From NCBI GenBank assembly GCA_030538185.1, contig JAUNUK010000003.1, forward strand, positions 110,125 through 174,124: a stretch of DNA of 64,000 nt, in the 5' to 3' direction. The DNA is from Actinomycetaceae bacterium. GTDB lineage: Bacteria; Actinomycetota; Actinomycetes; Actinomycetales; Actinomycetaceae. Each line of letters opens with the position of its first letter. Position 1 is the first letter of the stretch. Position numbers and translations under genes: made by a program. Under the pieces are notes generated by a model, which was not told where the DNA came from, searched no databases, and worked only from the letters and a program-made list of their open reading frames with translations. Shown here one piece after another: positions 3 to 60,832 of this stretch.

Positions 3-908
3 CACGAAGCCGCAGGCCAAGTCGCAGCCGTGGGCGCAAAGGTCACAGACTTACAAGTTGGTGACCGCGTCACTTTCGACTCGACCGTCTACTGCAACCG
101 CTGTCCATCGTGCAAAAAAGGCAATGTGAACCTGTGTACCGACCGGCAGGTCTTGGGCGTTTCTTGTGATGACTACCGCCGCAACGGGGCCTTCGCCGAG
201 TACATGACCGTGCCCTCATACATCTGCTACAAGCTGCCCGACAGTGTCAGCTACGTGCAAGCAGCGATGGTCGAACCCATGGCTATCGCCTACCACGCAG
301 CCACCCGCACCCCTATCGAAGCTGGCATGTCTGTGGTCATTGTCGGTGTTGGAACCATCGGCCTGCTCACCTTGCAAATAGCCAAAGCCATGGGCGCCAA
401 CCCAATAATCGCTGTCGATATCGACCAGGCCAAGTTAGACACCGCCCTCGGAAATGGGGCTAGTCATGCCATCAACTCAAACGACCCAGATGCCCTTGCC
501 AAGATCCTCGAAGCAACCCCCAACAAAGAAGGCGTCGATATTGCCTTTGATGCCACCGGCATTGACGCAACGGTCAACCTCAGCGTGCGCAGCGTGAAGC
601 TCAACGGTGCAATCGTGCTTATTGGCAACCTGGCCCAAAACACAAACTTCCCCCTGCAATGGGTCGTCACCAGGCAACTTAGCCTCTTTGGAACCTGTGC
701 CTCAGCCGGGGAATACCCCGAGTGTCTGCGTCTGATTGCCGAGAAAAAAGTCGACGTCGAGGCACTAATTTCCAAGGTCGTCCCCCTGGAAGACGGCCAC
801 GAGTGGATCACCAGGGTCTACAACCGCGAAGACGGTCTGAACAAGATCGTCGTGTGCCCAACGCCAACCGAAGCACCAACCTCAACACCAACGCCCGAAA
901 ACAACTGA
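3..908 (+). CDS. Zn-dependent alcohol/polyol dehydrogenase (MDR family), 5' end cut by window edge
   Basis: The frame is open from nt 3 (HEAAGQVAAVG). It has a structural-Zn CxxCxxCx7C motif (CNRCPSCKKGNVNLC), a GxGxxG motif (VGVGTIGL) and a Pro/Thr-rich C-terminal tail. Confidence 0.85.
   Translation, partial: HEAAGQVAAVGAKVTDLQVGDRVTFDSTVYCNRCPSCKKGNVNLCTDRQVLGVSCDDYRRNGAFAEYMTVPSYICYKLPDSVSYVQAAMVEPMAIAYHAATRTPIEAGMSVVIVGVGTIGLLTLQIAKAMGANPIIAVDIDQAKLDTALGNGASHAINSNDPDALAKILEATPNKEGVDIAFDATGIDATVNLSVRSVKLNGAIVLIGNLAQNTNFPLQWVVTRQLSLFGTCASAGEYPECLRLIAEKKVDVEALISKVVPLEDGHEWITRVYNREDGLNKIVVCPTPTEAPTSTPTPENN
443..455 (-). repeat. copy of 13-mer ATTTCCGAGGGCG (in ADH CDS)
   Basis: The plus strand reads CGCCCTCGGAAAT. 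Confidence 0.9.
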
Positions 909-925
909 AACCGAAAGGCCTACCA

Positions 926-2011
926 GTGACAGACATCAAAACCGCCGTTATTGGTTGCGGCAAAATCGGCCACTTTCACGCGAAATGCTACCAAACTCTG
1001 CCCGGCAGCCAGTTTGTCGGCGCCGTTGGAACCCGACCCGGTCGCGGCAAAGAATTCGGCGCCCAATACGGCGTGCCCGGCTTTGACTCCCTGGAAGAAC
1101 TGGTCGAAGAGACGGGGGCGCAGGCCATAAGTATCTGCACCCCTCACCCCAACCACGCCGCAGTAGCCGTCGAGGCCGTCCGCTTGGGCCTCCACATTGC
1201 GGTTGAAAAACCTCTGGCCTCGACCCTTGCAGACTGCGACCAGATCATCGCCGCAGCGAACAAAGCCAACATCGTGGGCACGACGATCTGTCAACGCCGC
1301 TTTTACCGCCCGGCCATGCGCGTAAAACAAGCCATTGACGCAGGGAAACTCGGCCAACCGATCCTTGGGACAGTCAATATGCTGGGCTGGCGCGACATGG
1401 ACTATTACCGCAGTGACCCGTGGAGAGGCACCTGGGAAGGCGAAGGCGGCGGCGTCTTGGTCAACCAAGCCCCACACCAACTGGATATGTTGCTGTGGTT
1501 TATGGGCCCAATCAAAGAGGTCGTGGCCACCTGGGACACTCTGAATCACCCCGAACTTGAGGTCGATGACACGGCCATGGCCCTCATTCGTTTCCGCAGC
1601 GGCGCCGTGGGCAATATCGTCGTCAGCAATTCCCAGAATCCTGCCCTGTTCGGCAATGTGCGCGTGCACGGTTCAAATGGCGCCAGCGCGGGTGTTCAAA
1701 CAGATGGCGGGGCCATGTTCATTGCCGGAACCTCTGCGATTTTGGAACCGCCCGTCAACGACATCTGGACCGTGCCGGGCGAAGAAGGCATGTTAGAGGT
1801 CTACCGCAAGGAGGACTCTGACTTCTTCAACAGCGTCGATTCCATGCACCACTTCCACCAAGAACAACTGGCAGATTTCCTCACCGCTATTCGCAATGAC
1901 AGCAAACCTCTGATCACCTTGGAAGACGGGCGAGCAACCGTAGAGTTATTCACCGCCATCTACTGTTCTCAAGAACAGCACAGCTGGGTCCAGTTCCCAC
2001 TAGAAGCTTAG
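926..2011 (+). CDS. Gfo/Idh/MocA family NAD(P)-dependent oxidoreductase
   Basis: It has an N-terminal Rossmann motif (AVIGCGKIGHFH) and an EKP motif (AVEKPLA). I place the start at GTG 926, after a GAAAGG Shine-Dalgarno; the upstream part of ORF 722..2011 overlaps the ADH gene. Confidence 0.85.
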   Translation: MTDIKTAVIGCGKIGHFHAKCYQTLPGSQFVGAVGTRPGRGKEFGAQYGVPGFDSLEELVEETGAQAISICTPHPNHAAVAVEAVRLGLHIAVEKPLASTLADCDQIIAAANKANIVGTTICQRRFYRPAMRVKQAIDAGKLGQPILGTVNMLGWRDMDYYRSDPWRGTWEGEGGGVLVNQAPHQLDMLLWFMGPIKEVVATWDTLNHPELEVDDTAMALIRFRSGAVGNIVVSNSQNPALFGNVRVHGSNGASAGVQTDGGAMFIAGTSAILEPPVNDIWTVPGEEGMLEVYRKEDSDFFNSVDSMHHFHQEQLADFLTAIRNDSKPLITLEDGRATVELFTAIYCSQEQHSWVQFPLEA

Positions 2012-2024
2012 GATTTCCGGCCAA

Positions 2025-2106
2025 AATTGCCGAGGGCGAAGTCCAAGGAATCTGTGGGCACACACAGTTTGTGCCGCAAGAGTTCCTGAGCTTCGCCCTC
2101 GGAATT
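2025..2106. terminator. about 80-nt imperfect palindrome / bidirectional terminator between convergent genes
   Basis: The outer perfect 12-bp stem is CCGAGGGCGAAG (2030-2041) paired with CTTCGCCCTCGG (2091-2102). Inner pairings are GGCACA/TGTGCC and AGGAA/TTCCT. Confidence 0.7.
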
Positions 2107-2115
2107 AGTCTTTGC

Positions 2116-6202: not shown

Positions 6203-6883
6203 CTAGGGCAGCGCCCACTCCACAGGCGTAGCACCCTGCTGCATCAGCAACTCATTCGCCCTCGAAAATGGTTTTGATCCGAAAAAACCGCGGGCAGCCG
6301 ACAAAGGTGATGGGTGCACAGATTCGATTCTCGGGGTTTCGCCCAGCATGGGGGCAAGGCTGCGCGCGTCATTCCCCCACAGGATTGCAACCAAAGGTTT
6401 GTTCCTGGCCACCAAAGCCTCGATCGCACACTGGGTGACTTCCTCCCATCCTTTACCGCGATGAGAGGCGGCCATGCCAGGCTGCACCGTCAACACACGG
6501 TTTAGCAAACACACACCTTGCTTCGCCCAAGGAATTAAATCTCCCGAGGACGGCATGCTTACACCCAAGTCGTCGTGCAATTCGTGATAGATATTGACCA
6601 AAGAACGTGGCGGGTTGACGCCGGGAGACACTGAAAAGCTGAGGCCCATGGCGTGACCTGGTGTTGGATAAGGATCTTGCCCCACCAGTAAAACCTTCAC
6701 CTCATCGAATGGGTAGGTAAAGGCGCGCAGCACGGCGCTGCCTGGAGGAAAGTAACCACGTCCCGCAGCTATTTCGGCGCGCAACATGTCACCCAGCACG
6801 CGGATCTGTCCTTCGACAGGACGCAAGGCAGTGGCCCACCCGGGATCTAGCAATTCTTCCAAAGGCTTTGGTGCATCGCTCAT
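6203..6883 (-). CDS. ung: uracil-DNA glycosylase, family 1
   Basis: It carries GQDPYP (motif A) and HPSPLS (motif B) and is 226 aa long. Confidence 0.92.
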
Positions 6884-15953: not shown

Positions 15954-16679
15954 ATGCCCAGGATTTACGCACATCGGGGTATGTGCCTACAGGCTCCTGA
16001 AAATACCTTGGCCGCCTTTCGTATGGCTAAAGAGGCAGGCGCAGGATGGATCGAAACCGATGTCGACGTGACCAGTGATGGCACCCCCATCATCATTCAT
16101 GACACAGATCTGGACCGCACCACCAACCGAAGCGGCTCCATATATGACCTGGGGGCCGATGACCTTGAGGGAATCGACGCCGGTTCCTGGTTTTCTTCCG
16201 ATTTCGAGGGCGAACCCCTACCGACCCTGACCCAATTGGTGGATCTGATGAACGAGATCCACTTATCGGCAAATATTGAGCTAAAGTCACATGAAACCGG
16301 AGCTGCCCTGTCCAGGTCTTTAATCTGGAATACGATTGGCGAACTGATGCGTCTCAAGCGCGGCGCTCACGTCGTGGTTTCCTCCTTCAACCCCCTGCTG
16401 CTGGCGGAGTTCAAACGTGCGGCCCCCCAGTGGCCGGTTGCTTGGCTTACGACCCGCGAAACATTTGCTTCAGATTGGCGTTCCATGCTGGAACTCATTG
16501 ATGCCGACTATTTGCATCCCGAGGACGCCTCCCTTACACGCGAAAAAGTGCGTATGGTGCGCGCGGCAGGGTTCGGGGTCAATGTGTGGACCGTGAACTC
16601 TCGTGCAAGGGCCAATGAGCTAAAGAATTGGGGCGTAACCGGGATTATTACCGATCGCGCGGACCATTTGCTGAATTAG
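15954..16679 (+). CDS. glycerophosphodiester phosphodiesterase
   Basis: It has GDPD motifs (YAHRG...ENTLAAF, ETDV, IIHD). ATG 15954 lies just after the upstream stop. Confidence 0.85.
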   Translation: MPRIYAHRGMCLQAPENTLAAFRMAKEAGAGWIETDVDVTSDGTPIIIHDTDLDRTTNRSGSIYDLGADDLEGIDAGSWFSSDFEGEPLPTLTQLVDLMNEIHLSANIELKSHETGAALSRSLIWNTIGELMRLKRGAHVVVSSFNPLLLAEFKRAAPQWPVAWLTTRETFASDWRSMLELIDADYLHPEDASLTREKVRMVRAAGFGVNVWTVNSRARANELKNWGVTGIITDRADHLLN

Positions 16680-18079: not shown

Positions 18080-19621
18080 TCACACAGAATGCCTCTCCAG
18101 GAACTCATAGACATCTCTATCATCCAGACCAGGGAAGGCACCTGGGGGGACTGCGGCCAAAAGATGCGAGTGTGCCCGCACGGACGGCCAGGCATAGTTT
18201 GCCCATTTTTCTGACAACTCTGCGGGTGGCTGGCGACAACATGTGGGATCAGGGCACATGGAAGTTCTGCGTTCCGCGGTGTCTCGCCCTCGGAAATAAC
18301 GGGACTGTTCAAAAGGCACACCGAAACCTATTGCGAAATCCCCTGCACTTGTGCGCTCGACCTGACAAATGGAAAAGAAGGTACCGACCGGGGTGTCCGT
18401 GTATTGATAGTGAGGAGCGAAGGGATCGCCGACCTCAAAAACCCTGCGCACGGACATCTCTCGGCAGGCCAGTTGGCCTTCAATCGCACCGCTGGCATCC
18501 GTGGGTAACACCAGGCCGTCATTGGCGTAGGCCTTATAGATAATGCCATCGCGACCAACCCTCATGAAATGCACCGTCATATCCAGGTGCTCAGAACACA
18601 GGTTCGTGAATCGATGCACCGCTGCCTCATAGCGCACCGAGGCATAGTCGCGCAGGTCAGAAAGCGCGAGGTCGCGTTGCCGGTAAGCGTTTTTCAACCA
18701 CGCCACGGTCGCTTCTTCTGGCATAAGGACCGCCGAGGCGAAGTAATTGCTCTCTACTCTTTGACGCAGGAAGTCTGAAAAGGACGTCGGAATCCGATGC
18801 TGCAGAGCGTGATCCGCCAAGGAACGCAAAATCACCATGCGCAGGTCCTTATCTCCGCGCGAAGTCACAGGCAAATAAATCCTACGGTTACGCAGGTCCG
18901 CCACCGAGCGTGCAGCATGTGGAAGATCCTCGACGCGATGGATTTGGAATCCCAGATAATTGGCAATATCGGTCACCCCGGATTCCAGCAGAGGTCCTCC
19001 CTTATGTCCCACTGCATTCGTGACGCGCTTTGCAATCGCCTCTATCTCTGGGAAGTAGTTGTTCAACTCGCGCATTTGCGCCCGCAGGCCGACATTTGCA
19101 ACCCGGGCGGCTTCCGGGCTTTGCACCCGCAGTTGCGCCGAGGAATCCAGCTGCTTATAGGCTGCTATCAGGGCCTTCAGGGCATCCGTGGGCAGACGCG
19201 GACCAATATAGACTTCAGGGATATTCCACGAGGCAAAACGTGGATCGTTTTGGGCAGATTTCAAGGCCAGTTCCATCGCAGCCCTTTCCGAGGGCGGCTC
19301 GCTTTTCATCAGGTCGCCGATGGAGACATCCAGCGTTTGGGCAATCGCAGATAACAATGAGACCTTTGGTTCACGTTTACCGTTTTCTATCTGTGAAAGC
19401 AGTGACGGCGCGCGGTTGACTTCCTCGGCCAGGGTCGCCAGAGTCATATTCCTAGATTGGCGCATATGGCGGATTCGAGCCCCTAGTGTTGCCAGGTCGA
19501 CGGAAGTGGGGTCCGGGATCTCCGCGTCCGTGTTTGAATCTGCCCATGACATAAGGGGAGACGCGTAATGATGCTCCTTCCCTAGAGGGGATGCGGGCCT
19601 CGACGGCTTTGCCTCTGACAT
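18080..19621 (-). CDS. ramB: RamB/ScfR-like regulator (XRE HTH + ImmA/IrrE-like + DUF2083 architecture)
   Basis: It has an XRE HTH (MTLATLAEEVNRAPSLLSQIENGKR), is about 510 aa long, and is divergent from isocitrate lyase as in corynebacteria and mycobacteria. Confidence 0.75.
   Translation of the reverse strand: MSEAKPSRPASPLGKEHHYASPLMSWADSNTDAEIPDPTSVDLATLGARIRHMRQSRNMTLATLAEEVNRAPSLLSQIENGKREPKVSLLSAIAQTLDVSIGDLMKSEPPSERAAMELALKSAQNDPRFASWNIPEVYIGPRLPTDALKALIAAYKQLDSSAQLRVQSPEAARVANVGLRAQMRELNNYFPEIEAIAKRVTNAVGHKGGPLLESGVTDIANYLGFQIHRVEDLPHAARSVADLRNRRIYLPVTSRGDKDLRMVILRSLADHALQHRIPTSFSDFLRQRVESNYFASAVLMPEEATVAWLKNAYRQRDLALSDLRDYASVRYEAAVHRFTNLCSEHLDMTVHFMRVGRDGIIYKAYANDGLVLPTDASGAIEGQLACREMSVRRVFEVGDPFAPHYQYTDTPVGTFFSICQVERTSAGDFAIGFGVPFEQSRYFRGRDTAERRTSMCPDPTCCRQPPAELSEKWANYAWPSVRAHSHLLAAVPPGAFPGLDDRDVYEFLERHSV
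18285..18297 (-). repeat. copy of 13-mer ATTTCCGAGGGCG (in ramB-like CDS)
   Basis: The plus strand reads CGCCCTCGGAAAT. Confidence 0.9.
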
Positions 19622-21150: not shown

Positions 21151-21192
21151 TGCTCGCCCTCGGCAATCTTAAAAAATTGCCGAGGGCGAGCA
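21151..21192 (+). terminator. perfect 17-bp hairpin between aceA and aceB
   Basis: TGCTCGCCCTCGGCAAT - loop CTTAAAAA - ATTGCCGAGGGCGAGCA. No U-tract follows on the + strand. Confidence 0.65.
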
Positions 21193-22915: not shown

Positions 22916-22953
22916 GGTGGTCCCTCGGCTTTGGCTCAAGCCGAGGGACCACC
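22916..22953 (+). terminator. aceB terminator hairpin
   Basis: A perfect 15-bp stem (GGTGGTCCCTCGGCT / AGCCGAGGGACCACC) with an 8-nt loop is followed by GCTTT. Confidence 0.75.
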
Positions 22954-39786: not shown

Positions 39787-39890
39787 CCGTACATACACAC
39801 ATTTACGACGTACCGCCCTCGGGAATCTTTATAAAATATCTCTGAAGGCCAAAGTCGGCTAACCCTCCCCCTCCCCGAAGAAAGAACCTC

Positions 39891-41753: not shown

Positions 41754-41766
41754 ATTTCCGAGGGCG
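41754..41766 (+). repeat. copy of 13-mer ATTTCCGAGGGCG (intergenic, abutting terminator)
   Basis: This is an exact match on the plus strand. Confidence 0.9.
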
Positions 41767-42589: not shown

Positions 42590-42808
42590 GAGTCAACATG
42601 ACAGAAGCCGCACCACTGATCACTAAGATGGCAATCGTCGCAAGCCTCCGTTTTCAAGACCAGAGCCCAAGCACACCGTCCTCGGGAAGAAAAAGTGTCA
42701 ATCGCGAACCCTCGGGCATAATCATTTCTAGGATGAAATTATTGAGCGGTCACTGCCCACGCGCCATAGGTTCTGTGCGGGCACGGCCATATTCGCAAGG
42801 GAGCAATA

Positions 42809-45054: not shown

Positions 45055-46647
45055 CTATCCGTATATCAGGACCTGGGCGACCAGCAGTGCGCCTCCAAAT
45101 CCCAAAACGAACAACACCATTGGCCAAATGAAACGCAACCAGTGGGAGTACTTCATGTCAAGCATCTGAAGGGTTGCCATAACCAGACCAGTTGGCGCCA
45201 AGAACAACATGGCGTATTGGCCCCATTGATATGCGCACACAACAATAAACCTTGGAATGCCAACCGAATCAGCAAGAGGCGCCAAAATCGGCATAGATAG
45301 CACAGCCAATCCCGAGGACGAAGGCACTACGAAGCCCAGTACGAAGAAAATCAACAACATAATGATGATGAAGAGTGGCCCCGACATTCCCTCAACCAGC
45401 TGAGAAGACTGGAACAATAGGGTGTCCGATATGAGGCCCTCGTTCATGACCAGGTTGATCCCACGGGCCAACCCGATGATCAAAGAGACCGCCACTAGGG
45501 ACGCCGAGCCATTCGAAAAGGCATCGACAAGCTGTTTTTCTGTCAGGCGCTGCGGCCCTGTAGCCGCCAGCAACATGATTGCAATGGCGACTGTCAGGAA
45601 CATTGAAGCCATCGCCGGGAACCACCAGCCCTGCGACATCACCCCCCACACCATGATCGGGAATGCGGCGACGAAAAGAACCAGGATAACCTTGCGCCGC
45701 CATGAGAAAGGAATAGATGCTGCGTTGTCACCTTCCATGGCCCACTGCTTGTTGAAAGCTTCATGGTCTGAATAGGTGTAGGAAAACTCAGGGTTGGCCT
45801 TTATTTTCCTGGCGTACCACCACAAGTAGACGATGACTGCTATGGCTCCTACGACACAGCCTCCCACACGCCACCACAGGCCCTCTGTGAAGACAATACC
45901 CGCTGCGTTTGAGGCAATAACGACCGAAAATGGATTGATCGTCGAGAAAGTGGTTCCCATTGAGCCGGCTAGGAAGATTGCCCCGACGCTTATTATTGAG
46001 TCATACCCCAGTGCTATAAAAACAGGCACCAGGATGGGATAGAAGGCCACGGCCTCTTCCTCCAGCCCGCAGCTTGTTCCCCCAAGTATCATCAATACCG
46101 ACACCACGAAGACCAAAGCAAACTCATGCCCTTTGGTCTTTTGCGTCAAGACAAAGAGGCCAGCCTCAAAAGCGCCCGTGGCCCGCACAACACCAATCAA
46201 GCCCCCCAAGACCAAGATGAACACAATGATGTCTGCTGCCTCAACAGTGCCTTTGACCATGGCGTGTGTGATTTCTGAAGCTCCAGCAGGGTTTTGTTCC
46301 AGACGCTCATAAGTACCAGGGATCGAAATTGGCTTAGTGATCGCACCCTTTTGGAACTGTTCAATGCCAATCTGGACCCCCATCTTGTCCAATTCGGCCT
46401 GTGTCGCCTCAACGGTTTCCACCTCCCCGCGAGGGTTGGTGACAGACAGCTGACTTGTTTCCTTGTCATAGGACAGCTTTGAGTAGCTACCTGCGGGAAC
46501 AGACCAGGTTGCTCCTACCGCCAGAATGGTTAGGATGAAAAGAATGGTAAAGGCCGAAGGTACCCCTATTCGAATCCTGTTCCTGCGACGTTCTGCTTGC
46601 CTCTCGGTCTCTTGCTTTGTTGGTGCTTGCGTAGACGACATTGTCAT
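45055..46647 (-). CDS. YfcC/DcuC-family carrier (ArcD-like putative arginine/citrulline-ornithine antiporter)
   Basis: GLEEEAVAFYPILVPVFIALGYDSIISV matches my memory of the E. coli YfcC segment GMGEEAVAFAIIIAPLMVRLGYDSITTV. It is 530 aa long and adjacent to arcBC. Confidence 0.75.
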   Translation of the reverse strand: MTMSSTQAPTKQETERQAERRRNRIRIGVPSAFTILFILTILAVGATWSVPAGSYSKLSYDKETSQLSVTNPRGEVETVEATQAELDKMGVQIGIEQFQKGAITKPISIPGTYERLEQNPAGASEITHAMVKGTVEAADIIVFILVLGGLIGVVRATGAFEAGLFVLTQKTKGHEFALVFVVSVLMILGGTSCGLEEEAVAFYPILVPVFIALGYDSIISVGAIFLAGSMGTTFSTINPFSVVIASNAAGIVFTEGLWWRVGGCVVGAIAVIVYLWWYARKIKANPEFSYTYSDHEAFNKQWAMEGDNAASIPFSWRRKVILVLFVAAFPIMVWGVMSQGWWFPAMASMFLTVAIAIMLLAATGPQRLTEKQLVDAFSNGSASLVAVSLIIGLARGINLVMNEGLISDTLLFQSSQLVEGMSGPLFIIIMLLIFFVLGFVVPSSSGLAVLSMPILAPLADSVGIPRFIVVCAYQWGQYAMLFLAPTGLVMATLQMLDMKYSHWLRFIWPMVLFVLGFGGALLVAQVLIYG

Positions 46648-53027: not shown

Positions 53028-54008
53028 ATGAATGCGGGTTACGTCATTGCTGTCGACGTAGGCGGCACCAGTATGAAACTTGGTGTCGCCTCACGCGACG
53101 GCAAACTCTTTCTCACCAGGACTGCACCAACTCCCAAGGGCGCCGCAGCAGTCGTCTCAGTTATTACCCAACAAGTCTCCATGTTGCGCGAAGTCGTCCA
53201 TAATGACCCCAAGAATGTCGATATCGCCATCGATTTATCGCCCAGAGTGGGGGTGGCAGTTCCAGGCGTCGTGGATGAGGCCACCGGGATGGCCGTCCTT
53301 TCTGTCAATGTTGGCTGGAAAGATGTGCCCATGCTTCACATGCTGGAAGAATCTTTGGCCTGCCCAGTTACCCTCGGTCATGACGTGCGCTCTGGGGCAC
53401 TGGCAGAAGCCCGTTGGGGGGCCGGCCTTGGCGACTGCATCTTCATCCCTATCGGTACAGGTGTTTCGGCCGGCATAGTCTTAAACGACAGGCTTTTGTC
53501 GCGGGCAGGTTGGAGCGGAGAAATCGGGCAAATTCTTCAAAAGGATCCCGAGGGCGACGCGCAGTTAGTCCCCATGGAACGCCTGGCCTCTGCGAAGGCC
53601 ATCTCTCGACGCTATCGAGAGCTTCACGAAAAGGGTCGTCAGCTTCCAGGCTGTATTGAAACACCTGTTCCGGGTACTCTCTGGCCTGGCACACGCGAGC
53701 TTTTCGACAGAGCCGAAAACGGAGATGAGCTGGCCCAACTGGTTATTGACCAATCGGTCCACTCTTTGAGTCAGGTCATTGCACAGGTCATAGGGATTTT
53801 AGGACCCTTGAGGGTCGTTATCGGCGGCGGTCTTTCCAACGAAGGGGGCGCCTACATGGCCGCCCTCGAAAATGCTATTGCCTCGCAACTGCACGTGGCA
53901 CCGATGCCGCCCATCGTCAAGGCCAGCCTCGGCTCCTGGGCGCAGTGCCTGGGCATTGGGGCACAGGCCTTTGATGCCGATGATGCGGCAGAAAGGTTGC
54001 AACAGTGA
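53028..54008 (+). CDS. ROK-family sugar kinase
   Basis: It has an N-terminal DVGGTSMKLG ATP motif and a ROK core. No HTH is present, so it is a kinase rather than a repressor. Confidence 0.8.
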   Translation: MNAGYVIAVDVGGTSMKLGVASRDGKLFLTRTAPTPKGAAAVVSVITQQVSMLREVVHNDPKNVDIAIDLSPRVGVAVPGVVDEATGMAVLSVNVGWKDVPMLHMLEESLACPVTLGHDVRSGALAEARWGAGLGDCIFIPIGTGVSAGIVLNDRLLSRAGWSGEIGQILQKDPEGDAQLVPMERLASAKAISRRYRELHEKGRQLPGCIETPVPGTLWPGTRELFDRAENGDELAQLVIDQSVHSLSQVIAQVIGILGPLRVVIGGGLSNEGGAYMAALENAIASQLHVAPMPPIVKASLGSWAQCLGIGAQAFDADDAAERLQQ

Positions 54009-55069
54009 TCTGGACTATCACGCCTAATCCGGCGATGGATATCACCTACCACCTTCCCGCCTTGAACCTGGGTCAGTCGCACAGAGTTGAAGACGTAACC
54101 ATCCGACCTGGGGGCAAGGGCTTAAATGTCGCCTTTGTAGCCGCACAAATGGGTGTTGACGTACAGGTCGTGGGGTTTCTTGGTGGCTCGGTCGGCCAGG
54201 ATATCGCCCAGCTAACAACCGCGCGCGCAAAGTCTCTACCAGGTAGCATTACCCCGCACTGGCTAGATGGTCCCGAACTGACACGAAAATCGATTGCTAT
54301 CGTGGCTGATGGGGATGCCACGGTCTTCAACGAGGCAGGTTCTCCGTTAAAACAAGGGGCCTGGGAAGCCCTGTACCGATTGGTCCAAGAGGAGATAGGG
54401 CCCGACGACATTGTGACCATCAATGGTTCCCTTCCGGCCTTAGCCCCGATCGATGCCCTGGGGAAACTTGTGGAACACTGCCAGCAGGCGGGTGCCTACA
54501 CGATTGTGGACACCTCTGGTCCTGCCTTATTGGCTGCTGCACGCAGTGGCGCACGGCTGTTGAAGCCAAACCATCTGGAACTTGCTCAGGTGACTGGCAC
54601 TGACTCCGTTCTTACCGGTGCCCACACGCTGCTGGCAGAGGGCAAACCCGGCATGTGGCTGGCTGTCTCCATGGGAGAAAAAGGCATGGCCCTTATTCGC
54701 AGCTTGCCCGATGATGCTGATGTACTCGACATCTGGCAAGCGTTCCCAGCAAGTCGTTTAGACGGCAACCCCACGGGGGCAGGTGACGCATCCGTCGCCG
54801 CTTTGGCCGTACACGCCCCCGCCCTCGTCAATCCGGGGGGCAGGTCAGAGCATCAAATAAGGATCCTGCCTGATTTGTTAGAAGAAAACGATCCAAGTCA
54901 GGCCCTTAAAGGCGATTTACCAGGGGAAGCCCTGGCCCTAAAGACAGCCGTAGCCTGGTCTGCCGCGGCCGTCCTTAAACCAGTGGCGGGCAGCATTGAT
55001 GAACACGCTGCCTCGTCCATGTTCAGCTCCATCCCTGTTCACCACTACTACGCGAAGGTACAAAAATGA
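54005..55069 (+). CDS. PfkB-family hexose-phosphate kinase (1-phosphofructokinase/tagatose-6-phosphate kinase type)
   Basis: It has TPNPAMD...GGKGLNVA at the N-terminus and GAGDA near the C-terminus. It overlaps the neighbouring genes by 4 nt. Confidence 0.8.
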   Translation: MIWTITPNPAMDITYHLPALNLGQSHRVEDVTIRPGGKGLNVAFVAAQMGVDVQVVGFLGGSVGQDIAQLTTARAKSLPGSITPHWLDGPELTRKSIAIVADGDATVFNEAGSPLKQGAWEALYRLVQEEIGPDDIVTINGSLPALAPIDALGKLVEHCQQAGAYTIVDTSGPALLAAARSGARLLKPNHLELAQVTGTDSVLTGAHTLLAEGKPGMWLAVSMGEKGMALIRSLPDDADVLDIWQAFPASRLDGNPTGAGDASVAALAVHAPALVNPGGRSEHQIRILPDLLEENDPSQALKGDLPGEALALKTAVAWSAAAVLKPVAGSIDEHAASSMFSSIPVHHYYAKVQK

Positions 55070-55905
55070 CTCAGGCCGATATTCGTACACTGTCCACCCA
55101 GTTTGCCGCCGAAAAGAAAGGTTTGGGGGCTTTCAATGTGGTGCTGCTCGAATTCGGTGAGGCCATCGTCGCAGCCGCCGAAGAAGCAGGGCTTCCGGTT
55201 ATTCTCCAGCTTTCCCAAAACGCGGTGAAATATCACCGAGGGCGACTCGCCCCCATTGGCAAAGGCGTTATTGCCCTGGCCGAAGAGGCTCGCGTACCCG
55301 TTGTGGCGCACCTGGACCACGCCGAGGACATAGACCTGTGCAAAGCGGCCGTGGACCTGGGCTTCACCTCGGTTATGTATGACGGTTCGCACCTGTCTGA
55401 TGAGGAAAACAGGCGCACAACCGCTGAGATCACCGCTTGGTGCCACGCCCGAGGTGTTGCCGTGGAAGCCGAGTTGGGCGAAGTGGGAGGCAAGAACGGG
55501 GTACATGATCCAAGTGCGCGCACCAACCCACAAGACGCCGCTCGCTTTGTGAATGACACCGGGGTGGACCTATTGGCTGTAGCCGTTGGTTCCTCACACA
55601 CCATGACCACCCGCACAGCAGAGTTGGACTGCCAGTTAATCTCCGAGATTCGTGACGCTATCAGTGTGCCTCTGGTTTTGCACGGCTCTTCAGGGGTTTC
55701 AGATGAAGGCATGAGGGCCGCCATTGAAGCCGGGATGACGAAGATCAACGTATCTACTCATTTGAATGTCTTGTACACCGCTCAAGTGCGCGCAGTTTTG
55801 GACGCGGATGAAAAAATCGTGGATCCCAGGAAGTACGGTAAACCTGGGAACGCCGCAGTCGAGGCAGAAGTTGCACGCTTATTACGTTGGTATGCGGGGC
55901 AATAA
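55066..55905 (+). CDS. class II ketose-bisphosphate aldolase (tagatose-/fructose-bisphosphate aldolase, GatY/KbaY-like)
   Basis: It has HLDHA, MYDGSHL and LHGSSG motifs and is 279 aa long. Confidence 0.8.
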   Translation: MTQADIRTLSTQFAAEKKGLGAFNVVLLEFGEAIVAAAEEAGLPVILQLSQNAVKYHRGRLAPIGKGVIALAEEARVPVVAHLDHAEDIDLCKAAVDLGFTSVMYDGSHLSDEENRRTTAEITAWCHARGVAVEAELGEVGGKNGVHDPSARTNPQDAARFVNDTGVDLLAVAVGSSHTMTTRTAELDCQLISEIRDAISVPLVLHGSSGVSDEGMRAAIEAGMTKINVSTHLNVLYTAQVRAVLDADEKIVDPRKYGKPGNAAVEAEVARLLRWYAGQ

Positions 55906-57562: not shown

Positions 57563-58336
57563 ATGGTCCCAATAGACGACACAGGTAATTCTTCAGATCC
57601 TTCTCACCAGGACACGCAAGCGACTCCTCCTTCCTCGCCTCCACCCGGAGAAATTCAGGGAGTTGGCCCCTGGTCCGAGGGCGATTACCCAAGTGATCCT
57701 CACTTTGATCCGCAGCTCTTGCGCGAAGGGGATGCGCGTAATGTGCTTGACCGCTATAGGTATTGGACAGTCGAGGCCATTGTGGAAGACCTTGACCGGC
57801 GTTTAGATGACCCGCCGATTGAGCCGAGTACTCCAGATGCTGCGCATGCGCTGGGCAAAACCACCACACAATCCCAGAAGCTATTGCCACGCCTGGATAT
57901 GGCAATAGAAAACCTGGGACACGATTTCAATATTGGCTCAGTCATACGCACCGCTAACTGCTTGGGTGTTCGCCACGTGCATATCCTTGGTCGCAAACGT
58001 TTCAACAGGCGAGGTGCCATGGTGACAGATCGATACCTGCACATGCACTACCATCCAGATATTTCTTCGCTAAAGGAATACGCTGTGCAGCAGCATTTAG
58101 TTTTGTGCGCGCTGGACAATCTGGAAGGCGCCCTGCCCCTGGAAACCGCAACAATTCCTGCCCGCATGATACTCATTGCCGGGGAAGAATCATCTGGAAT
58201 AACACCAGAAGTTGCAAGGAATTGCGAGATGATGTTCGAGATAACCCAGCACGGATCGTCAAGGTCCATGAATGTGGGAGCCGCTTCGGCCATAGCCATG
58301 TGGGCTTGGCGGGCCCAAAACCCACCACCGCAGTAA
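57563..58336 (+). CDS. SpoU/TrmH-family RNA 2'-O-methyltransferase
   Basis: SpoU motifs are present (NIGSVIRTANCLG, LIAGEESSGI, SMNVGAASAIAMW). The N-terminal roughly 60 aa are low-complexity and the start is uncertain. Confidence 0.8.
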   Translation: MVPIDDTGNSSDPSHQDTQATPPSSPPPGEIQGVGPWSEGDYPSDPHFDPQLLREGDARNVLDRYRYWTVEAIVEDLDRRLDDPPIEPSTPDAAHALGKTTTQSQKLLPRLDMAIENLGHDFNIGSVIRTANCLGVRHVHILGRKRFNRRGAMVTDRYLHMHYHPDISSLKEYAVQQHLVLCALDNLEGALPLETATIPARMILIAGEESSGITPEVARNCEMMFEITQHGSSRSMNVGAASAIAMWAWRAQNPPPQ

Positions 58337-58345: not shown

Positions 58346-58358
58346 CGCCCTCGGAAAT
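58346..58358 (-). repeat. copy of 13-mer ATTTCCGAGGGCG (intergenic, 10 nt after TrmH-like stop)
   Basis: The plus strand reads CGCCCTCGGAAAT. Confidence 0.9.
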
Positions 58359-58384: not shown

Positions 58385-59161
58385 ATGTCTTGGGCCGTAA
58401 TAACCGGAGCCTCCAGCGGCTTGGGTGAGGAATTCGCCTGGCAGTTCGCGGCCGAGAAAGTCGGATTGGTTTTGGTGGCCAGACGCAAGGACCGCCTAGT
58501 CAGCCTGGCACACAAAATCTCGCAGGTCGCAGGCATACCTGTAGAAGTTTTGGTCGCTGACCTAGAGAAACGTGAAGACCTGGACCGGGTATGCAGGCGA
58601 GTGTCCGATCCCGACAAGCCTGTCGATGTGCTCGTGAACAATGCGGGCTTCGGTCTGGGGCAAAGCTTTTTAGGTGGGGATAGACACAAAGAAGAAGCCG
58701 CCTTGGACGTTATGGTGCGCGCGGTCCTGGTTTTGTCGCACGCGGCTGCACACGCCATGAGCCTGCGAGGACGCGGGGCAATCATCAATGTCGCCTCGGC
58801 CACGGCAGGTACGGCCATGGGCACCTACGCTTCACACAAGACCTGGGTCGTAAACTTCACCGAAGGCCTATCTACAGAACTCCAAGATACAGGAGTACAT
58901 GTCACAGCGGTTTTGCCCGGTCTTGTTCACACAGATTTTCACGAGACAGCCTCGATGGATTGGCGGGCTTGGCCCACTTTTGGGTTTATTTCGCGCGCCT
59001 TGGTTGTACGAGAGGCCATTGAGGCGGCTCGCCGAGGGCGGGTCTTGGTCACTCCAAGCGTTATGTATCAAGCTTTGGGGTGCATAATCCGCCATGCTCC
59101 GCGTCCGATGGTCAGGGCTCTTGCCGGGGCTGGACTCTTTGCCAGGGCACTTGATCGCTAA
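58385..59161 (+). CDS. short-chain dehydrogenase/reductase (SDR)
   Basis: It has TGASSGLG, NNAG and YxxxK (YASHK) motifs. Confidence 0.85.
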   Translation: MSWAVITGASSGLGEEFAWQFAAEKVGLVLVARRKDRLVSLAHKISQVAGIPVEVLVADLEKREDLDRVCRRVSDPDKPVDVLVNNAGFGLGQSFLGGDRHKEEAALDVMVRAVLVLSHAAAHAMSLRGRGAIINVASATAGTAMGTYASHKTWVVNFTEGLSTELQDTGVHVTAVLPGLVHTDFHETASMDWRAWPTFGFISRALVVREAIEAARRGRVLVTPSVMYQALGCIIRHAPRPMVRALAGAGLFARALDR

Positions 59162-59164
59162 GCT

Positions 59165-59950
59165 ATGCGTATGAGGCTTGCTACTTGGAATGTGAACTCT
59201 GCGCGTACACGCGTAGAGCGCATCACCGCGTTCTTGGAACGCTGGGACGTCGATGTTTTGGCCATGCAAGAAACCAAGTGTCGCGTCGACCAGTTCCCAC
59301 GTAAGCCTTTCGAGGATATGGGCTACCACGTCGAGGTTAATGGGGCGAACCAGTGGAACGGTGTCGCAATTGTTTCACGCATGGACAGCACCTTGATCGG
59401 CACTTCTTTCCCCGGACAACCCCCGTTTGGGGAGCCTGCGGCGTTGGAGCCCAGGACTATCGGCGTGCGCTGCGGAGGAATCGCTGTGTGGTCCTTGTAC
59501 ATACCCAATGGTCGCGAGCTAGGACACCCGCATTTCGACTACAAGCTGGCCTACCTGGACGCCCTGCGCACGCATGTCGAGGACACTTTGCGCAAGGACC
59601 CCGATTCTTTGGGTATTTACGTGGGCGACTTCAATATCGCTTGGCGGGATAGCGACGTGTGGGATATGGCAGCTTTCGAGGGCGCCACACACGTCACTGC
59701 TGATGAGCGGGCGAGGCTGGATGCTTTGGAAGCTGCGGGGTTGAAAGAAGTCACCCGTGAACTGGTAGAGGGCTATACCTATTGGGACTATCAGCGCCTG
59801 CGTTTCCCAAAGAACGAGGGCATGCGCATTGACTATGCCTTCGCTACGCCGGCTTTGGGGGCACATGTGGTGGCGGCACATTTGGACCGTGAAGAGCGCA
59901 AAGGCAAAGGCGCTTCAGACCACATCCCCGTCATCGTCGACATTGCCTGA
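59165..59950 (+). CDS. xthA: exodeoxyribonuclease III
   Basis: It has LATWNVNS at the N-terminus, a C-terminal SDHIPV motif, and is 261 aa long. Confidence 0.88.
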   Translation: MRMRLATWNVNSARTRVERITAFLERWDVDVLAMQETKCRVDQFPRKPFEDMGYHVEVNGANQWNGVAIVSRMDSTLIGTSFPGQPPFGEPAALEPRTIGVRCGGIAVWSLYIPNGRELGHPHFDYKLAYLDALRTHVEDTLRKDPDSLGIYVGDFNIAWRDSDVWDMAAFEGATHVTADERARLDALEAAGLKEVTRELVEGYTYWDYQRLRFPKNEGMRIDYAFATPALGAHVVAAHLDREERKGKGASDHIPVIVDIA

Positions 59951-59977
59951 GGTTTGATCGGCACGAGGCCAAAGGCA

Positions 59978-60832
59978 CTACCTGGCGAGGGCGGTTTCTA
60001 TGAGGTCTGGCCAGTTTTCTTTGTGCCAGTCGCCAAAGGGTTGGGCACCCAAGAACGCGATAACGGTGTCGGTCAGAGGGTTTACCAATAGGAAAGACCC
60101 TGACTGACCGAAGTGCCCGAAACAGTAGGGCGGGGTATTGACTGGTGTCCAGTGCGGAGTTTTTCGCCCTCGGATCTCTATGCCCATACCCCACAGGTTG
60201 TCATTCTGCCTGCCGTAACCCGGCAAAACCCCTGACAAACCGGGCATCCACGGCTGTTGGACCAAAGCCCACATATCCCTTGAGATCAGGGTGGGCTTGG
60301 CCAATTCTTGCGCAAATGTGAGCAAGTCTGTGATAGTGCCTCGCATTGAATCCGCAGGGGATCCCGGCATCTGTGTGCGGGTCATCTCCAGAGGCTCGGT
60401 GACGGTTTTCGCGACCCACTGAGAGATGGTCATGCGCGTGGCCTTTTCAACCATCTGTCCCACCAGCTCGAAGCCCCTGTTTGAATAGATGCGGTGTGTC
60501 CGCAGGCGGGCACTTAGATGGTTGGAGGCGAAGGCCAAACCAGTCGTGTGTCCCAACAGGTCAGCAAGTGTAGAACCGGGTGGACAAGGTTCGCCTGGGG
60601 GATCAGAGAAGGTCATCAAGCCGTCCTCGACAGCCTTCCAGGTCGCGAAGGAGGTTACGAGCTTGGACACTGAGGCCCACGGAAAAACCTGAGAGATATC
60701 GCCGAATAGCTCAACGCGCTGTCCCGGACTGCGCGACCTCAGTGGCCGTGATACCGCCAAGGCGTAGGGAAAGGGGATCGCGCTCAGTCTATTTTCTAGG
60801 GAGTCAAAGGGCACTAAGTCGTTGCTGGGCAC
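59978..60832 (-). CDS. serine hydrolase, beta-lactamase/PBP fold
   Basis: It has an SxxK motif (SVSK) near the N-terminus and is 284 aa long. Confidence 0.65.
   Translation of the reverse strand: MPSNDLVPFDSLENRLSAIPFPYALAVSRPLRSRSPGQRVELFGDISQVFPWASVSKLVTSFATWKAVEDGLMTFSDPPGEPCPPGSTLADLLGHTTGLAFASNHLSARLRTHRIYSNRGFELVGQMVEKATRMTISQWVAKTVTEPLEMTRTQMPGSPADSMRGTITDLLTFAQELAKPTLISRDMWALVQQPWMPGLSGVLPGYGRQNDNLWGMGIEIRGRKTPHWTPVNTPPYCFGHFGQSGSFLLVNPLTDTVIAFLGAQPFGDWHKENWPDLIETALAR

What the first reader, a model, noticed from the sequence alone, without database searches (positions are those of the whole stretch)
443..60173. Over-represented word (A)TT(T/G)CCGAGGGCG(R) in genes, after stops and in terminator stems: DNA-uptake-sequence or Chi-like signal
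Reading both strands by eye, I count 21 exact copies of CCGAGGGCG/CGCCCTCGG.
- Forward copies start at 2030, 19288, 21180, 24010, 27130, 29954, 31464, 34430, 41758, 53548, 55236, 57675 and 59032.
- Reverse copies start at 443, 2094, 18285, 21155, 33321, 39814, 58346 and 60165.

With equal base frequencies, a given 9-mer is expected about 2 x 64000 / 4^9 = 0.5 times. GC bias could raise this only modestly. Thirteen of the 21 copies are preceded by TT(T/G/C), and 18 of 21 are followed by a purine. The 13-mer ATTTCCGAGGGCG occurs six times, and the 14-mer with a final G occurs four times.

Copies sit inside unrelated genes, on both sense and antisense strands and in different frames. Examples are A-L-G-N in the ADH and GH112 genes, Y-F-R-G-R in the ramB-like gene, P-S-E-M in GH42, P-E-G in the ROK kinase, and R-G-R in the aldolase and SDR genes. 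Some are singletons just 3' of stop codons (39814, 41758, 58346). Others form inverted pairs that make terminator stems (2030/2094 and 21155/21180, plus the variant CCGAGGGAC pair at 22920/22941).

I saw no exact copy in the AT-richer segment at 6.9-14.6 kb, and none between 41.8 and 53.5 kb.

The pattern has five parts: a short GC-rich core with an AT-rich flank, roughly one copy per 3 kb, frame independence, pairing into terminators, and depletion in putatively foreign DNA. This matches what is established for the DUS of Neisseriaceae and the USS of Pasteurellaceae. I am not aware of an equivalent described for this kind of actinobacterium. Alternatives are a Chi-like recombination signal, a nucleoid-protein site, or a degenerate REP family.
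Basis: partly seen in the sequence, partly recalled or inferred. Interest (0 to 1): 0.82.

Follow-up and report, generated by a model that had tools for sequence, protein, structure and literature searches.

The report
Hyper-abundant uptake-sequence-like DNA word
An uncultured Actinomycetaceae bacterium carries the 14-base word ATT(T/G)CCGAGGGCG(A/G) about 30 times more often than chance, spread over genes, gene ends and hairpins in the way DNA-uptake sequences of Neisseria and Haemophilus are, which would be a first for a Gram-positive lineage if it works the same way.

Summary
CCGAGGGCG occurs 21 times at exactly the listed coordinates, against 0.6-0.75 expected. It is the most over-represented 8-, 9- and 10-mer of the window. 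The full word is 14 nt, ATT(T/G)CCGAGGGCG(A/G): 17 copies with at most one mismatch against 0.15 expected. A second, related word, TCCCGAGGACG, occurs 5 times against 0.04 expected.

It is not a long repeat, because flanks beyond the 14 nt carry no information. It is not a codon or peptide bias: four of six frames are used, and synonymous-codon shuffling predicts 1.15 coding copies against 14 observed. At conserved peptides the word is built from synonymous codon choices that relatives do not share.

It shows no strand skew (8-mer core 19:17; sense:antisense 15:14). It is enriched between genes (7 of 21 copies in 8.6% of bases). It forms two exact inverted-pair hairpins plus one variant pair, is patchy along the window, and is absent from the nearest available relatives.

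Known Chi-type or KOPS-type skew, REP/MITE elements and palindromic HIP-type words each fail a defining feature tested here. A DUS/USS-like uptake or self-DNA word is the best-supported reading (about 0.4). Function is untested, and density is 3-10 times lower than in classical cases.

The parts
443..451 (-). Exact 9-mer; full 14-mer ATTTCCGAGGGCGG. Lies inside the Zn-ADH gene (30-908 +), antisense, read as A-L-G-N.
2030..2038 (+). Exact 9-mer (ATTGCCGAGGGCGA). Left arm of a long hairpin between convergent genes.
   Evidence: I1
2094..2102 (-). Exact 9-mer (AATTCCGAGGGCGA). Right arm of the same hairpin.
   Evidence: I1
2026..2106 (.). About 80-nt imperfect hairpin whose stem base is the inverted motif pair. 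It sits between the stops of the GFO/IDH/MocA oxidoreductase gene (2011) and an ABC permease gene (2116).
   Evidence: -53.7 kcal/mol, z -5.45
18285..18293 (-). Exact 9-mer (ATTTCCGAGGGCGA). Sense strand of the RamB-like regulator gene, TAT TTC CGA GGG CGA = Y-F-R-G-R, on a peptide in which F and G are invariant and the second R nearly so across nine of its ten closest listed homologues. Relatives use CGC GGT CGT or CGC GGC CGG.
19288..19296 (+). Exact 9-mer (CTTTCCGAGGGCGG). Antisense in the RamB-like gene, on the conserved peptide E-P-P-S-E-R.
21155..21163 (-). Exact 9-mer (ATTGCCGAGGGCGA). Left arm of the hairpin between the isocitrate lyase and malate synthase genes.
21180..21188 (+). Exact 9-mer (ATTGCCGAGGGCGA). 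Right arm of the same hairpin.
21151..21192 (.). Perfect 17-bp stem hairpin made of two full 14-mers (loop of 8 nt) between ICL (stop 21101) and MS (start 21221). No T-tract follows on either strand.
   Evidence: (I20)
22916..22953 (.). 16-bp hairpin made of the variant pair AAGCCGAGGGACCACC / GGTGGTCCCTCGGCTT, 58 nt after the malate synthase stop. Terminator-like with a T-rich tail.
24010..24018 (+). Exact 9-mer (ATTTCCGAGGGCGT). Antisense in the GH42 gene, read as T-P-S-E-M.
27130..27138 (+). Exact 9-mer without the AT flank. Antisense in an ABC permease gene, read as S-P-S-G.
29954..29962 (+). Exact 9-mer (ATTTCCGAGGGCGG). Antisense in the GH112 gene, read as T-A-L-G-N.
31464..31472 (+). 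Exact 9-mer without the flank. Antisense in the GH112 gene, read as A-P-S-A.
33321..33329 (-). Exact 9-mer (CTTGCCGAGGGCGG). Sense in the alpha-amylase-family gene, read as L-A-E-G-G.
34430..34438 (+). Exact 9-mer. Antisense in the same gene, read as D-A-L-G-A.
39814..39822 (-). Exact 9-mer (ATTCCCGAGGGCGG). Intergenic singleton between a solute-binding-protein gene (stop 39729) and a permease gene (start 39891), just 3' of a separate 15-bp GC hairpin.
41758..41766 (+). Exact 9-mer (ATTTCCGAGGGCGG). Intergenic, 15 nt after a permease stop (41743); its 3' end runs into an 18-bp terminator-like hairpin.
53548..53556 (+). Exact 9-mer. Sense in the ROK kinase gene, read as D-P-E-G-D.
55236..55244 (+). 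Exact 9-mer. Sense in a class II aldolase gene, read as H-R-G-R.
57675..57683 (+). Exact 9-mer. Sense in the SpoU methylase gene, read as S-E-G-D.
58346..58354 (-). Exact 9-mer (ATTTCCGAGGGCGG). Unstructured intergenic singleton between the SpoU stop (58336) and the SDR start (58385).
59032..59040 (+). Exact 9-mer. Sense in the SDR gene, read as R-R-G-R.
60165..60173 (-). Exact 9-mer. Sense in a beta-lactamase-family gene, read as I-R-G-R.
6256..6269 (-). One-mismatch 14-mer, ATTTTCGAGGGCGA, in the UDG-family gene.
27801..27814 (-). One-mismatch 14-mer, ATTTCCGAGGGAGG, in an ABC permease gene.
53860..53873 (-). One-mismatch 14-mer, ATTTTCGAGGGCGG, in the ROK gene.
54819..54832 (-). One-mismatch 14-mer, ATTGACGAGGGCGG, in the PfkB kinase gene.
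6542..6552 (+). Second word TCCCGAGGACG (A variant of the core).
16517..16527 (+). Second word TCCCGAGGACG.
36129..36139 (-). Second word TCCCGAGGACG.
42677..42687 (-). Second word TCCCGAGGACG, intergenic.
45310..45320 (+). Second word TCCCGAGGACG.

Best explanation
The word ATT(T/G)CCGAGGGCG(A/G), with a minor variant TCCCGAGGACG, is a lineage-specific genomic signature sequence of the DUS/USS type.

Proposed mechanism (inferred):
- A sequence-specific step in the intake of extracellular DNA, such as a pilus, pseudopilus or surface DNA receptor, favours fragments that carry the word.
- Homologous recombination then fixes incoming copies.
- Over time the word accumulates wherever it is tolerated: in any permissive reading frame through synonymous codon choice, at gene ends, and as inverted pairs that double as hairpins or terminators.
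- It stays rare in recently acquired DNA.

Shown here: the word itself, its extent, its enrichment at the DNA level rather than the protein level, its strand symmetry, its intergenic excess, its hairpin pairs, its patchiness, and its absence from the closest available relatives.

Inferred by analogy only: that the selective agent is biased DNA uptake followed by recombination.
For: 1. **Strong, word-specific enrichment.** 21 copies vs 0.62-0.75 expected. The 14-mer with at most one mismatch occurs 17 times vs 0.15. It is the top word of the window by many orders of magnitude.
2. **Defined extent.** Information is confined to 14 positions, A-T-T-K-C + CGAGGGCG + R. Nothing is conserved beyond them and there is no long repeat family.
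3. **DNA-level, not protein-level.** Synonymous-codon shuffling that keeps proteins and codon usage gives 1.15 +/- 1.05 coding copies (maximum 5 of 500) against 14 observed. Four of six frames are used. At the conserved FRGR peptide this genome uses TTC CGA GGG CGA, where Mobiluncus porci has TTC CGC GGT CGT and the L084 relative has TTC CGC GGC CGG, although CGA makes up only 10% of Arg codons here.
4. **No strand bias.** Counts are 19:17 for the 8-mer on the two DNA strands and 15:14 sense:antisense.
5. **Intergenic excess.** 7 of 21 copies lie in the 8.6% of non-coding bases (p = 0.0013). Two exact inverted pairs and one variant pair make hairpins at gene ends. DUS likewise sit mostly between genes and commonly form inverted pairs at terminators (PMC3630211, PMC2397512).
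6. **Patchiness.** There are gaps of 16.2 and 11.8 kb (joint p = 0.003), and no G-type copy in the genes below 50% GC. DUS are absent from recently acquired genes (PMC2397512).
7. **Lineage specificity.** There are 0 copies in 64 kb of the three nearest genome representatives of similar GC (L002-L004), and 0 in L084 and L086.
8. **Two related words in one genome.** A second enriched word differs at one core position, as with the two single-nucleotide dialects in Simonsiella muelleri (PMC3630211).
Against: - No functional evidence exists. Competence genes, pilus genes and a receptor could not be looked for, because only 64 kb of an uncultured MAG was accessible.
- Sequence-specific uptake is known only from Gram-negative Neisseriaceae and Pasteurellaceae. 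No Gram-positive example is known to me, and none turned up in the literature searches.
- Density is 3-10 times lower than in classical cases: one 9-mer per 3 kb here, against about 2,200-5,900 DUS per genome (5,918 in the 2.4-Mb K. oralis genome; PMC3630211) and, from my own knowledge, about one USS per 1.2 kb in H. influenzae.
- In the classical families the word or a dialect runs through whole genera. Here the nearest relatives lack this word, and evidence for their own words is weak (L084 E = 5e-4, within reach of background loci at about 2e-3).
- Part of the DNA that is lineage-specific relative to the relatives (24-42 kb) is motif-rich, so 'depleted in foreign DNA' is not clean.
- The 21151-21192 hairpin has no T-tract, so 'terminator' is not established for it.
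Confidence: 0.4

Rival explanations
1. The word is the binding or processing site of an abundant sequence-specific DNA protein unrelated to uptake, for example a nucleoid-organising factor or a recombination/repair loading signal that works in either orientation. Selection for many dispersed sites keeps it frequent.
For: The enrichment acts on DNA rather than protein, the word is a defined 14 nt, and both strands are used equally. Spacing of one site per 1.3-3.8 kb would suit a chromosome-wide factor. Two related words fit a degenerate protein site.
Against: From my own knowledge, the chromosome-wide sites I know of (parS, NBS, SBS, matS) are palindromic and far rarer, and none accumulates 30-fold inside genes by synonymous changes. 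This reading gives no reason for inverted pairs at gene ends or for the total absence of the word in close relatives. No candidate protein is visible in the window.
Confidence: 0.22
2. The word is a by-product of a mutation or repair bias, comparable to the hyper-abundant HIP1 palindromes of cyanobacteria. A sequence-specific methyltransferase with very-short-patch-type repair, or biased gene conversion, would steadily convert near-matches into the word without any function of the word itself.
For: The word is made by point (mostly synonymous) substitutions at otherwise conserved positions. It is lineage-specific. It occurs in coding and non-coding DNA on both strands.
Against: From my own knowledge, the word excesses attributed to VSP-type repair are modest, not 30-fold to several hundred-fold. 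The word is non-palindromic and 14 nt long with an AT-rich flank, which is longer than typical methyltransferase sites. A pure mutational drive does not explain the intergenic excess or the inverted pairing. The window is too small to test for depletion of deamination variants, whose expectations are below 1.3 each.
Confidence: 0.15
3. The word is a Chi-like recombination hotspot recognised by RecBCD, AddAB or AdnAB, which protects self DNA from degradation.
For: The density (one per 1.8-3 kb) and the G-rich 8-mer core resemble known Chi sites (own knowledge). The word is enriched inside genes.
Against: The 8-mer core is 19:17 on the two strands in a window whose GC skew has the same sign in most 2-kb bins, with a steadily falling cumulative skew. 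A 75% Chi-type skew would give 19 or fewer of 36 with p of about 0.003, by my own arithmetic from the counts. The strict 13-mer is 3:3 and the 14-mer is 6:11. From my own knowledge, Chi sites are 5-8 nt, lack an AT-rich flank, are not enriched between genes and do not form inverted pairs (compare). With 21 copies, the 13:8 split of the 9-mer alone cannot exclude a mild skew.
Confidence: 0.08
4. The word is a degenerate REP/MITE-type mobile repeat or merely a reusable terminator stem, with the copies inside genes incidental.
For: Two exact pairs and one variant pair form strong hairpins at gene ends. The two exact-pair hairpins share about 32 nt at 81% identity (D17).
Against: 14 of 21 copies are single copies inside genes, sit on conserved peptides and involve no insertion. 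Flanks carry no information beyond the 14 nt. No repeat family longer than about 20-30 nt contains the word. Three intergenic copies are singletons outside any stem of their own.
Confidence: 0.04
5. The excess comes from chance, base composition, or a codon or peptide bias.
For: Markov order 5 raises the expectation to 5.7. The peptides R-G-R and A-L-G recur.
Against: The order-5 expectation is inflated by the word's own copies. Shuffles never exceed 3 copies. Synonymous-codon shuffling gives 1.15 against 14. Four frames plus seven intergenic copies are used. Relatives of similar GC have 0 copies in 64 kb.
Confidence: 0.01

Closest known systems
DNA uptake sequences (DUS) of Neisseriaceae, e.g. 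AT-DUS ATGCCGTCTGAA and its dialects
   Same: - A short non-palindromic word with a strongly conserved core and a softer flank.
- Hyper-abundant and present on both strands.
- Found inside genes in several frames, and more often between genes.
- Inverted pairs form stem-loops at gene ends.
- Absent or rare in some DNA segments.
- Single-nucleotide variants can coexist in one genome.
- Lineage-specific.

(PMC3630211 and PMC2397512)
   Different: - The sequence is unrelated.
- Density is about 3-10 times lower.
- The host is a Gram-positive actinobacterium, in which the ComP minor-pilin receptor of type IV pili is not expected.
- No dialect series could be shown across relatives.
- Uptake bias is untested.
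Uptake signal sequences (USS) of Pasteurellaceae, e.g. AAGTGCGGT with AT-rich flanks
   Same: A 9-nt core plus an AT-rich flank gives an extended consensus. Coding copies are accommodated through tolerated peptides and codon choice. Inverted pairs act as terminators. Positions differ in how strictly they are kept: here positions 1 and 7 of the 9-mer are soft.
   Different: Here the AT-rich flank lies 5' of a GC-rich core and is only 4-5 nt long. Density is lower. The taxon and cell envelope are different. No receptor or uptake data exist.
Chi sites (e.g. E. coli GCTGGTGG)
   Same: A G-rich 8-mer core, a density of one per few kb, and location mostly within genes.
   Different: No strand skew (19:17), a 14-nt extent with an AT flank, an intergenic excess and inverted pairs.
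HIP1-type highly iterated palindromes of cyanobacteria (GCGATCGC)
   Same: A hyper-abundant short word in both coding and non-coding DNA, created by point substitutions and varying between lineages.
   Different: The word here is not palindromic, is longer and is far less dense.
REP/BIME and MITE-type intergenic repeats
   Same: Some copies form intergenic hairpins.
   Different: Two thirds of the copies are single and inside genes. There is no extended homology.

Membership tests
DUS/USS-type uptake sequence | Short (9-14 nt) word far above compositional expectation | tested here: met
   21 copies vs 0.62-0.75; the 14-mer with at most one mismatch 17 vs 0.15. Density is lower than in classical cases.
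DUS/USS-type uptake sequence | No replication- or transcription-strand bias | tested here: met
   8-mer 19:17 on the DNA strands; sense:antisense 15:14. This rests on one 64-kb window only.
DUS/USS-type uptake sequence | Copies inside genes in several reading frames, imposed at the DNA level | tested here: met
   Four of six frames are used. Synonymous shuffle gives 1.15 vs 14 observed. Codon comparison with orthologues.
DUS/USS-type uptake sequence | Excess between genes and inverted pairs forming terminator-like hairpins | tested here: met
   7 of 21 copies are intergenic, p = 0.0013. Three hairpins. Only one of them has a T-rich tail.
DUS/USS-type uptake sequence | Enriched in core DNA and absent from recently acquired DNA | tested here: inconclusive
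   The distribution is patchy (p = 0.003) and genes below 50% GC carry no G-type copy. However, GC3 correlation is weak, and some DNA that relatives lack is motif-rich.
DUS/USS-type uptake sequence | Shared, or replaced by dialects, across the related taxon | tested here: inconclusive
   The same word is absent from all relatives sampled. A different candidate word occurs in L084 (E = 5e-4), but loci of 14-21 kb lack the power to decide.
DUS/USS-type uptake sequence | Competent cells preferentially bind or take up DNA that carries the word | not testable with these tools
   Uncultured MAG; needs uptake or transformation competition assays.
DUS/USS-type uptake sequence | Competence machinery and a sequence-specific receptor are encoded | not tested
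Chi / KOPS-type polar signals | Strong co-orientation with replication | tested here: not met
   19:17 for the 8-mer and 6:11 for the 14-mer, in a window whose GC skew keeps the same sign in most 2-kb bins and whose cumulative skew falls steadily.
Chi / KOPS-type polar signals | Recognition by RecBCD/AddAB/AdnAB or FtsK | not testable with these tools
   Biochemical assay needed.
REP/MITE repeats | Intergenic, palindromic units with extended homology | tested here: not met
   14 of 21 copies lie within genes. Flanks carry no information beyond 14 nt. No long repeat family.
HIP-type iterated palindromes | The word is its own reverse complement | tested here: not met
   CCGAGGGCG differs from CGCCCTCGG (read directly from the sequence).
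Known structured RNA family | Match to an Rfam covariance model | tested here: not met
   No Rfam family reaches its gathering score anywhere in the window.

The most novel reading that the evidence does not exclude
This uncultured Actinomycetaceae lineage uses ATT(T/G)CCGAGGGCG(A/G) as a true DNA uptake sequence. That would make it the first sequence-specific self-DNA recognition system for natural transformation in a Gram-positive (Actinomycetota) bacterium. It would necessarily use a receptor unrelated to neisserial ComP, and TCCCGAGGACG would be a second dialect in the same genome.
Probability: 0.35. Interest if true: 0.9.

Novelty: new variant of a known kind. Interest (0 to 1): 0.68.

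Why it matters
Sequence-specific DNA uptake is known from only two Gram-negative families. It underlies ideas about bacterial 'sex', species barriers and genome maintenance.

A word with the same genomic anatomy in an actinobacterium would have three consequences:
- It would imply that this strategy evolved independently on a different cell envelope.
- It would point to an undiscovered DNA receptor.
- It would predict natural competence in a group (Actinomycetaceae, Mobiluncus-like) where none is described.

Even if uptake is not the cause, a 14-nt word written into conserved genes by synonymous codon choice shows a strong, unexplained DNA-level force. It also gives a practical marker for binning and for detecting foreign DNA in this lineage.

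Tried and rejected
1. **Literature search by sequence.** Searching for CCGAGGGCG/CGCCCTCGG returned only incidental primer and construct hits. Searches for uptake sequences together with Actinomyc*, Mobiluncus or Actinobacteria found nothing relevant. A search on competence in Actinomycetaceae gave only general ComEC papers.
2. **Extending beyond the window.**
   - Look-ups with three edge ORFs (722-2011, 2116-2934 and 61928-63712) found no gene with that exact product on record.
   - The contigs that other window genes returned (L001, L082, L083) lie within the window or extend less than 3 kb beyond it.
   - As a result, genome-wide counts, replichore mapping and a search for competence genes were impossible.
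3. **Genome-contig scan with isocitrate lyase.**
   - Only three Actinomycetaceae relatives came back; the other 77 loci were distant high-GC actinobacteria.
   - Those served only as a background control: 169 copies of the 9-mer in 1.54 Mb at mostly 60-74% GC.
4. **Metagenome-contig scan for ATTTCCGAGGGCGG.** It returned 120 stretches with one match each and none with a high density of the 9-mer, i.e. chance-level matches. The lineage was not found there.
5. **Own words ('dialects') in relatives.**
   - L084's GTTTGGCTGGAGGG is suggestive (8 copies of its core in 14 kb).
   - Its corrected E of 5e-4 is close to the best words of unremarkable control loci (2e-3 to 5e-3).
   - A word as dense as the window's would reach only about 1e-3 in 21 kb (my own estimate), so this line is undecided.
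   - GCGCACTAG in L085 is not significant.
6. **Correlation of motif density with GC3.** Weak: rho 0.21, p 0.13.
7. **Known RNA families.** None in the window.
8. **Resemblance to the Bacillus Noc-binding site.** ATTTCCCGGGAAAT shares ATTTCC with the word. I considered and rejected this: that site is palindromic, about 20 times rarer and specific to Firmicutes (own knowledge).

Full report
**Observation**

Dinucleotide-preserving shuffles give a mean of 0.62 and never more than 3. Markov models of order 1-3 expect 0.62-0.75 copies. Orders 4 and 5 give 1.8 and 5.7, but they are trained on a sequence that already holds the copies.

An unbiased scan of all words shows that this word and its sub-words are the most over-represented 8-, 9- and 10-mers of the window. 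Bonferroni-corrected Poisson E-values are 5e-22 for CGAGGGCG (36 vs 3.0) and 3e-18 for the 9-mer.

TT(T/G/C) precedes 12 copies rather than 13.

**Extent of the word**

Aligning all 36 copies of the 8-mer core shows information only at five upstream positions (A, T, T, T/G, C) and one downstream position (purine). Every other flank position is at background. The unit is therefore 14 nt, ATT(T/G)CCGAGGGCG(A/G). With at most one mismatch it occurs 17 times against 0.15 expected.

Single-substitution analysis shows which positions are soft:
- Position 1 of the 9-mer is soft (C 21, T 7, A 5, G 3).
- Position 7 has a real variant, CCGAGGACG, with 9 copies against 0.6 expected.
- That variant carries its own flank. 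TCCCGAGGACG occurs 5 times against 0.04.

A repeat search finds no family longer than about 20-30 nt that contains the word.

**Not a protein-level effect**

The window is 91% coding (gene set and the Logan gene calls). Fourteen 9-mers lie in genes, seven sense and seven antisense. They use four of the six possible frames, giving R-G-R, x-E-G-x, A-L-G and P-S-x.

I shuffled synonymous codons among identical amino acids across all genes, which keeps every protein and the codon usage. This gives 1.15 +/- 1.05 coding copies, with a maximum of 5 in 500 shuffles, against 14 observed.

The RamB-like regulator shows how copies arise. Both of its copies sit on peptides conserved across nine of its ten closest listed homologues, FRGR and EPPSER. 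At FRGR this genome reads TTC CGA GGG CGA, where Mobiluncus porci reads TTC CGC GGT CGT and the L084 relative reads TTC CGC GGC CGG. CGA is only 10% of Arg codons in the window. The word is thus written into genes by synonymous substitutions, not inserted.

**Strand, position and structure**

- **Strand.** The 8-mer core is 19:17 on the two strands, the 9-mer 13:8 and the 14-mer 6:11. None of these is significant. GC skew keeps the same sign in most 2-kb bins and the cumulative skew falls steadily, so the window probably lies in one replichore.
- **Intergenic excess.** Seven of 21 copies lie in the 8.6% of non-coding bases (p = 0.0013).
- **Inverted pairs.** Four of those seven form two inverted pairs. 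One is a roughly 80-nt hairpin between two convergent genes (2026-2106). The other is a perfect 17-bp stem made of two complete 14-mers between isocitrate lyase and malate synthase (21151-21192). A third hairpin after malate synthase uses the variant CCGAGGGAC (22916-22953). All three fold far better than shuffles, z about -5.5. Only the third has a T-rich tail.
- **Singletons.** Three singletons lie just beyond stop codons. Two of them (39814 and 41758) sit beside independent GC-rich hairpins.
- **Known RNAs.** No Rfam family matches anywhere in the window.

**Distribution along the window**

The copies are patchy. Gaps of 16.2 kb (2102-18285) and 11.8 kb (41766-53548) have a joint probability of 0.003 under uniform placement. 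Genes below 50% GC (the PucR-to-Gate block, hyp211, LuxR) hold no G-type copy.

The link to 'foreign' DNA is not clean:
- GC3 correlates only weakly with density (rho 0.21, p 0.13).
- Relatives have EEP, malate synthase, ICL and RamB close together, so about 36 kb of the window (23-59 kb) is lineage-specific relative to them. Its first half is motif-rich.

**Organism and relatives**

The RamB-like protein is identical to MDO5672555.1 from a MAG labelled 'Actinomycetaceae bacterium' (contig of 408,518 bp). Logan contigs from run SRR24915823 are 100% identical to the window.

By isocitrate lyase, the nearest species representatives are Mobiluncus porci (81%), an Actinomycetaceae MAG (80%) and a Varibaculum MAG (79%). 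Their 64 kb of DNA at 54-60% GC holds no 9-mer and six 8-mers, which is background. Other relatives reached through the regulator (L084, L086) also lack it. L085 (5 kb) has one copy without the characteristic flank.

The two background controls behave as chance:
- 77 distant actinobacterial loci (1.54 Mb, mostly 60-74% GC) hold one 9-mer per 9 kb.
- 120 metagenome contigs that were selected for holding the 14-mer hold only 24 further 9-mers in 720 kb.

One relative, L084, has its own candidate word, GTTTGGCTGGAGGG, whose core occurs 8 times in 14 kb on both strands and in both genes and spacers. Its corrected E of 5e-4 is not far from the best words of ordinary control loci, so 'dialects' in relatives remain only a lead.

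**Interpretation**

The tests reject or disfavour the following:
- chance or composition;
- codon or peptide bias;
- a long mobile repeat or REP family;
- palindromic HIP-type words (the word is not palindromic);
- strongly polar signals such as KOPS.

A Chi-type 75% skew is unlikely for the 8-mer core (19 of 36, p of about 0.003 by my arithmetic). The 9-mer alone cannot exclude a mild skew.

What remains is a strand-symmetric, DNA-level, lineage-specific word that is favoured between genes and as inverted pairs. This is the anatomy described for neisserial DUS: dialects, inverted pairs at terminators, a majority of intergenic copies, and absence from recently acquired genes (PMC3630211 and PMC2397512). 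From my own knowledge, the same holds for pasteurellacean USS. The coexistence of two words that differ at one core position also has a precedent in Simonsiella muelleri.

I therefore rank a DUS/USS-like uptake or self-DNA word first, at about 0.4. The caveats are substantial:
- No function has been tested and no competence gene has been seen.
- Density is 3-10 times lower than in the classical families.
- No Gram-positive precedent turned up.
- The nearest relatives lack the word.

The main rivals are an unknown abundant DNA-binding or DNA-processing protein site (0.22) and a mutation or repair drive of the HIP type (0.15). ComEC-type proteins are common in Actinobacteria, missing in only 10.7% of strains (PMC6299819), so their presence alone would not decide the matter. 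Their absence would.

**Novelty and verdict**

I found no description of this word, or of any uptake-type sequence, in Actinomycetaceae. The finding is real and statistically overwhelming within the window. I file it as a new variant of a known kind (an uptake-sequence-like genomic word in a new phylum and on a different cell envelope), with interest 0.68.

The decisive computations need the whole MAG and related genomes: genome-wide count, replichore orientation, core-versus-island density, competence gene inventory and a family-wide word survey. They are straightforward for anyone with that access.

Noticed in passing
window 44963-45035 and 49966-50038: Two copies of a roughly 72-nt element (94-97% identical, each able to form a hairpin). 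They flank a 5-kb low-GC cassette (DcuC-type carrier, LuxR regulator, ornithine/putrescine-type carbamoyltransferase, carbamate kinase; 45055-49951). This could be a duplicated terminator or the scar of an inserted cassette. The cassette holds no G-type copy of the word, only two A-variant 8-mers.
   Followed up: partly
L084 (Logan SRR17641486 contig, 14 kb), e.g. 5403, 5421, 10646, 11118: A relative with 61% identity in the RamB-like regulator and 63% GC has its own frequent word, GTTTGGCTGGAGGG. Its core TGGCTGGAG occurs 8 times vs 0.35 expected, on both strands and in genes and spacers. It shares TTT...GAGGG with the window's word. The corrected E of 5e-4 makes it suggestive only.
   Followed up: partly
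window 23000-59000 compared with L002, L084, L086: In relatives the EEP-family gene, malate synthase, isocitrate lyase and the RamB-like regulator lie close together. In the window about 36 kb of carbohydrate-uptake and glycosidase genes (GH42, GH112, GH13-like, GH3, four ABC systems) and two catabolic modules sit between malate synthase and the EEP gene.
   Followed up: partly
window 8760-11294 and 45055-49014: Two paralogous sets of a carbamoyltransferase plus a DcuC-family carrier. Both lie in the lower-GC, motif-poor stretches.
   Followed up: no
window 62042-63712: A methyl-accepting chemotaxis protein gene (HAMP + MCPsignal) in an Actinomycetaceae MAG. Chemotaxis and motility are unusual in the family and fit a Mobiluncus-like organism.
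   Followed up: no
L044 (Corynebacterium sp. H113) and L209 (Logan SRR15244393): Other loci show modestly over-represented words: GCTTTGCGACG 5 times in 21 kb in L044, and the palindrome GCGAATTCGC 4 times in 12.7 kb in L209. Corrected E is about 4e-3 for each, so they are not distinguishable from background at this sample size.
   Followed up: no
window 39754-39786 and 41763-41801: Perfect 15-bp and 18-bp GC-rich hairpins within and after an ABC transporter operon, each adjacent to a single copy of the word. The word is not part of the 15-bp stem and only abuts the 18-bp stem.
   Followed up: partly
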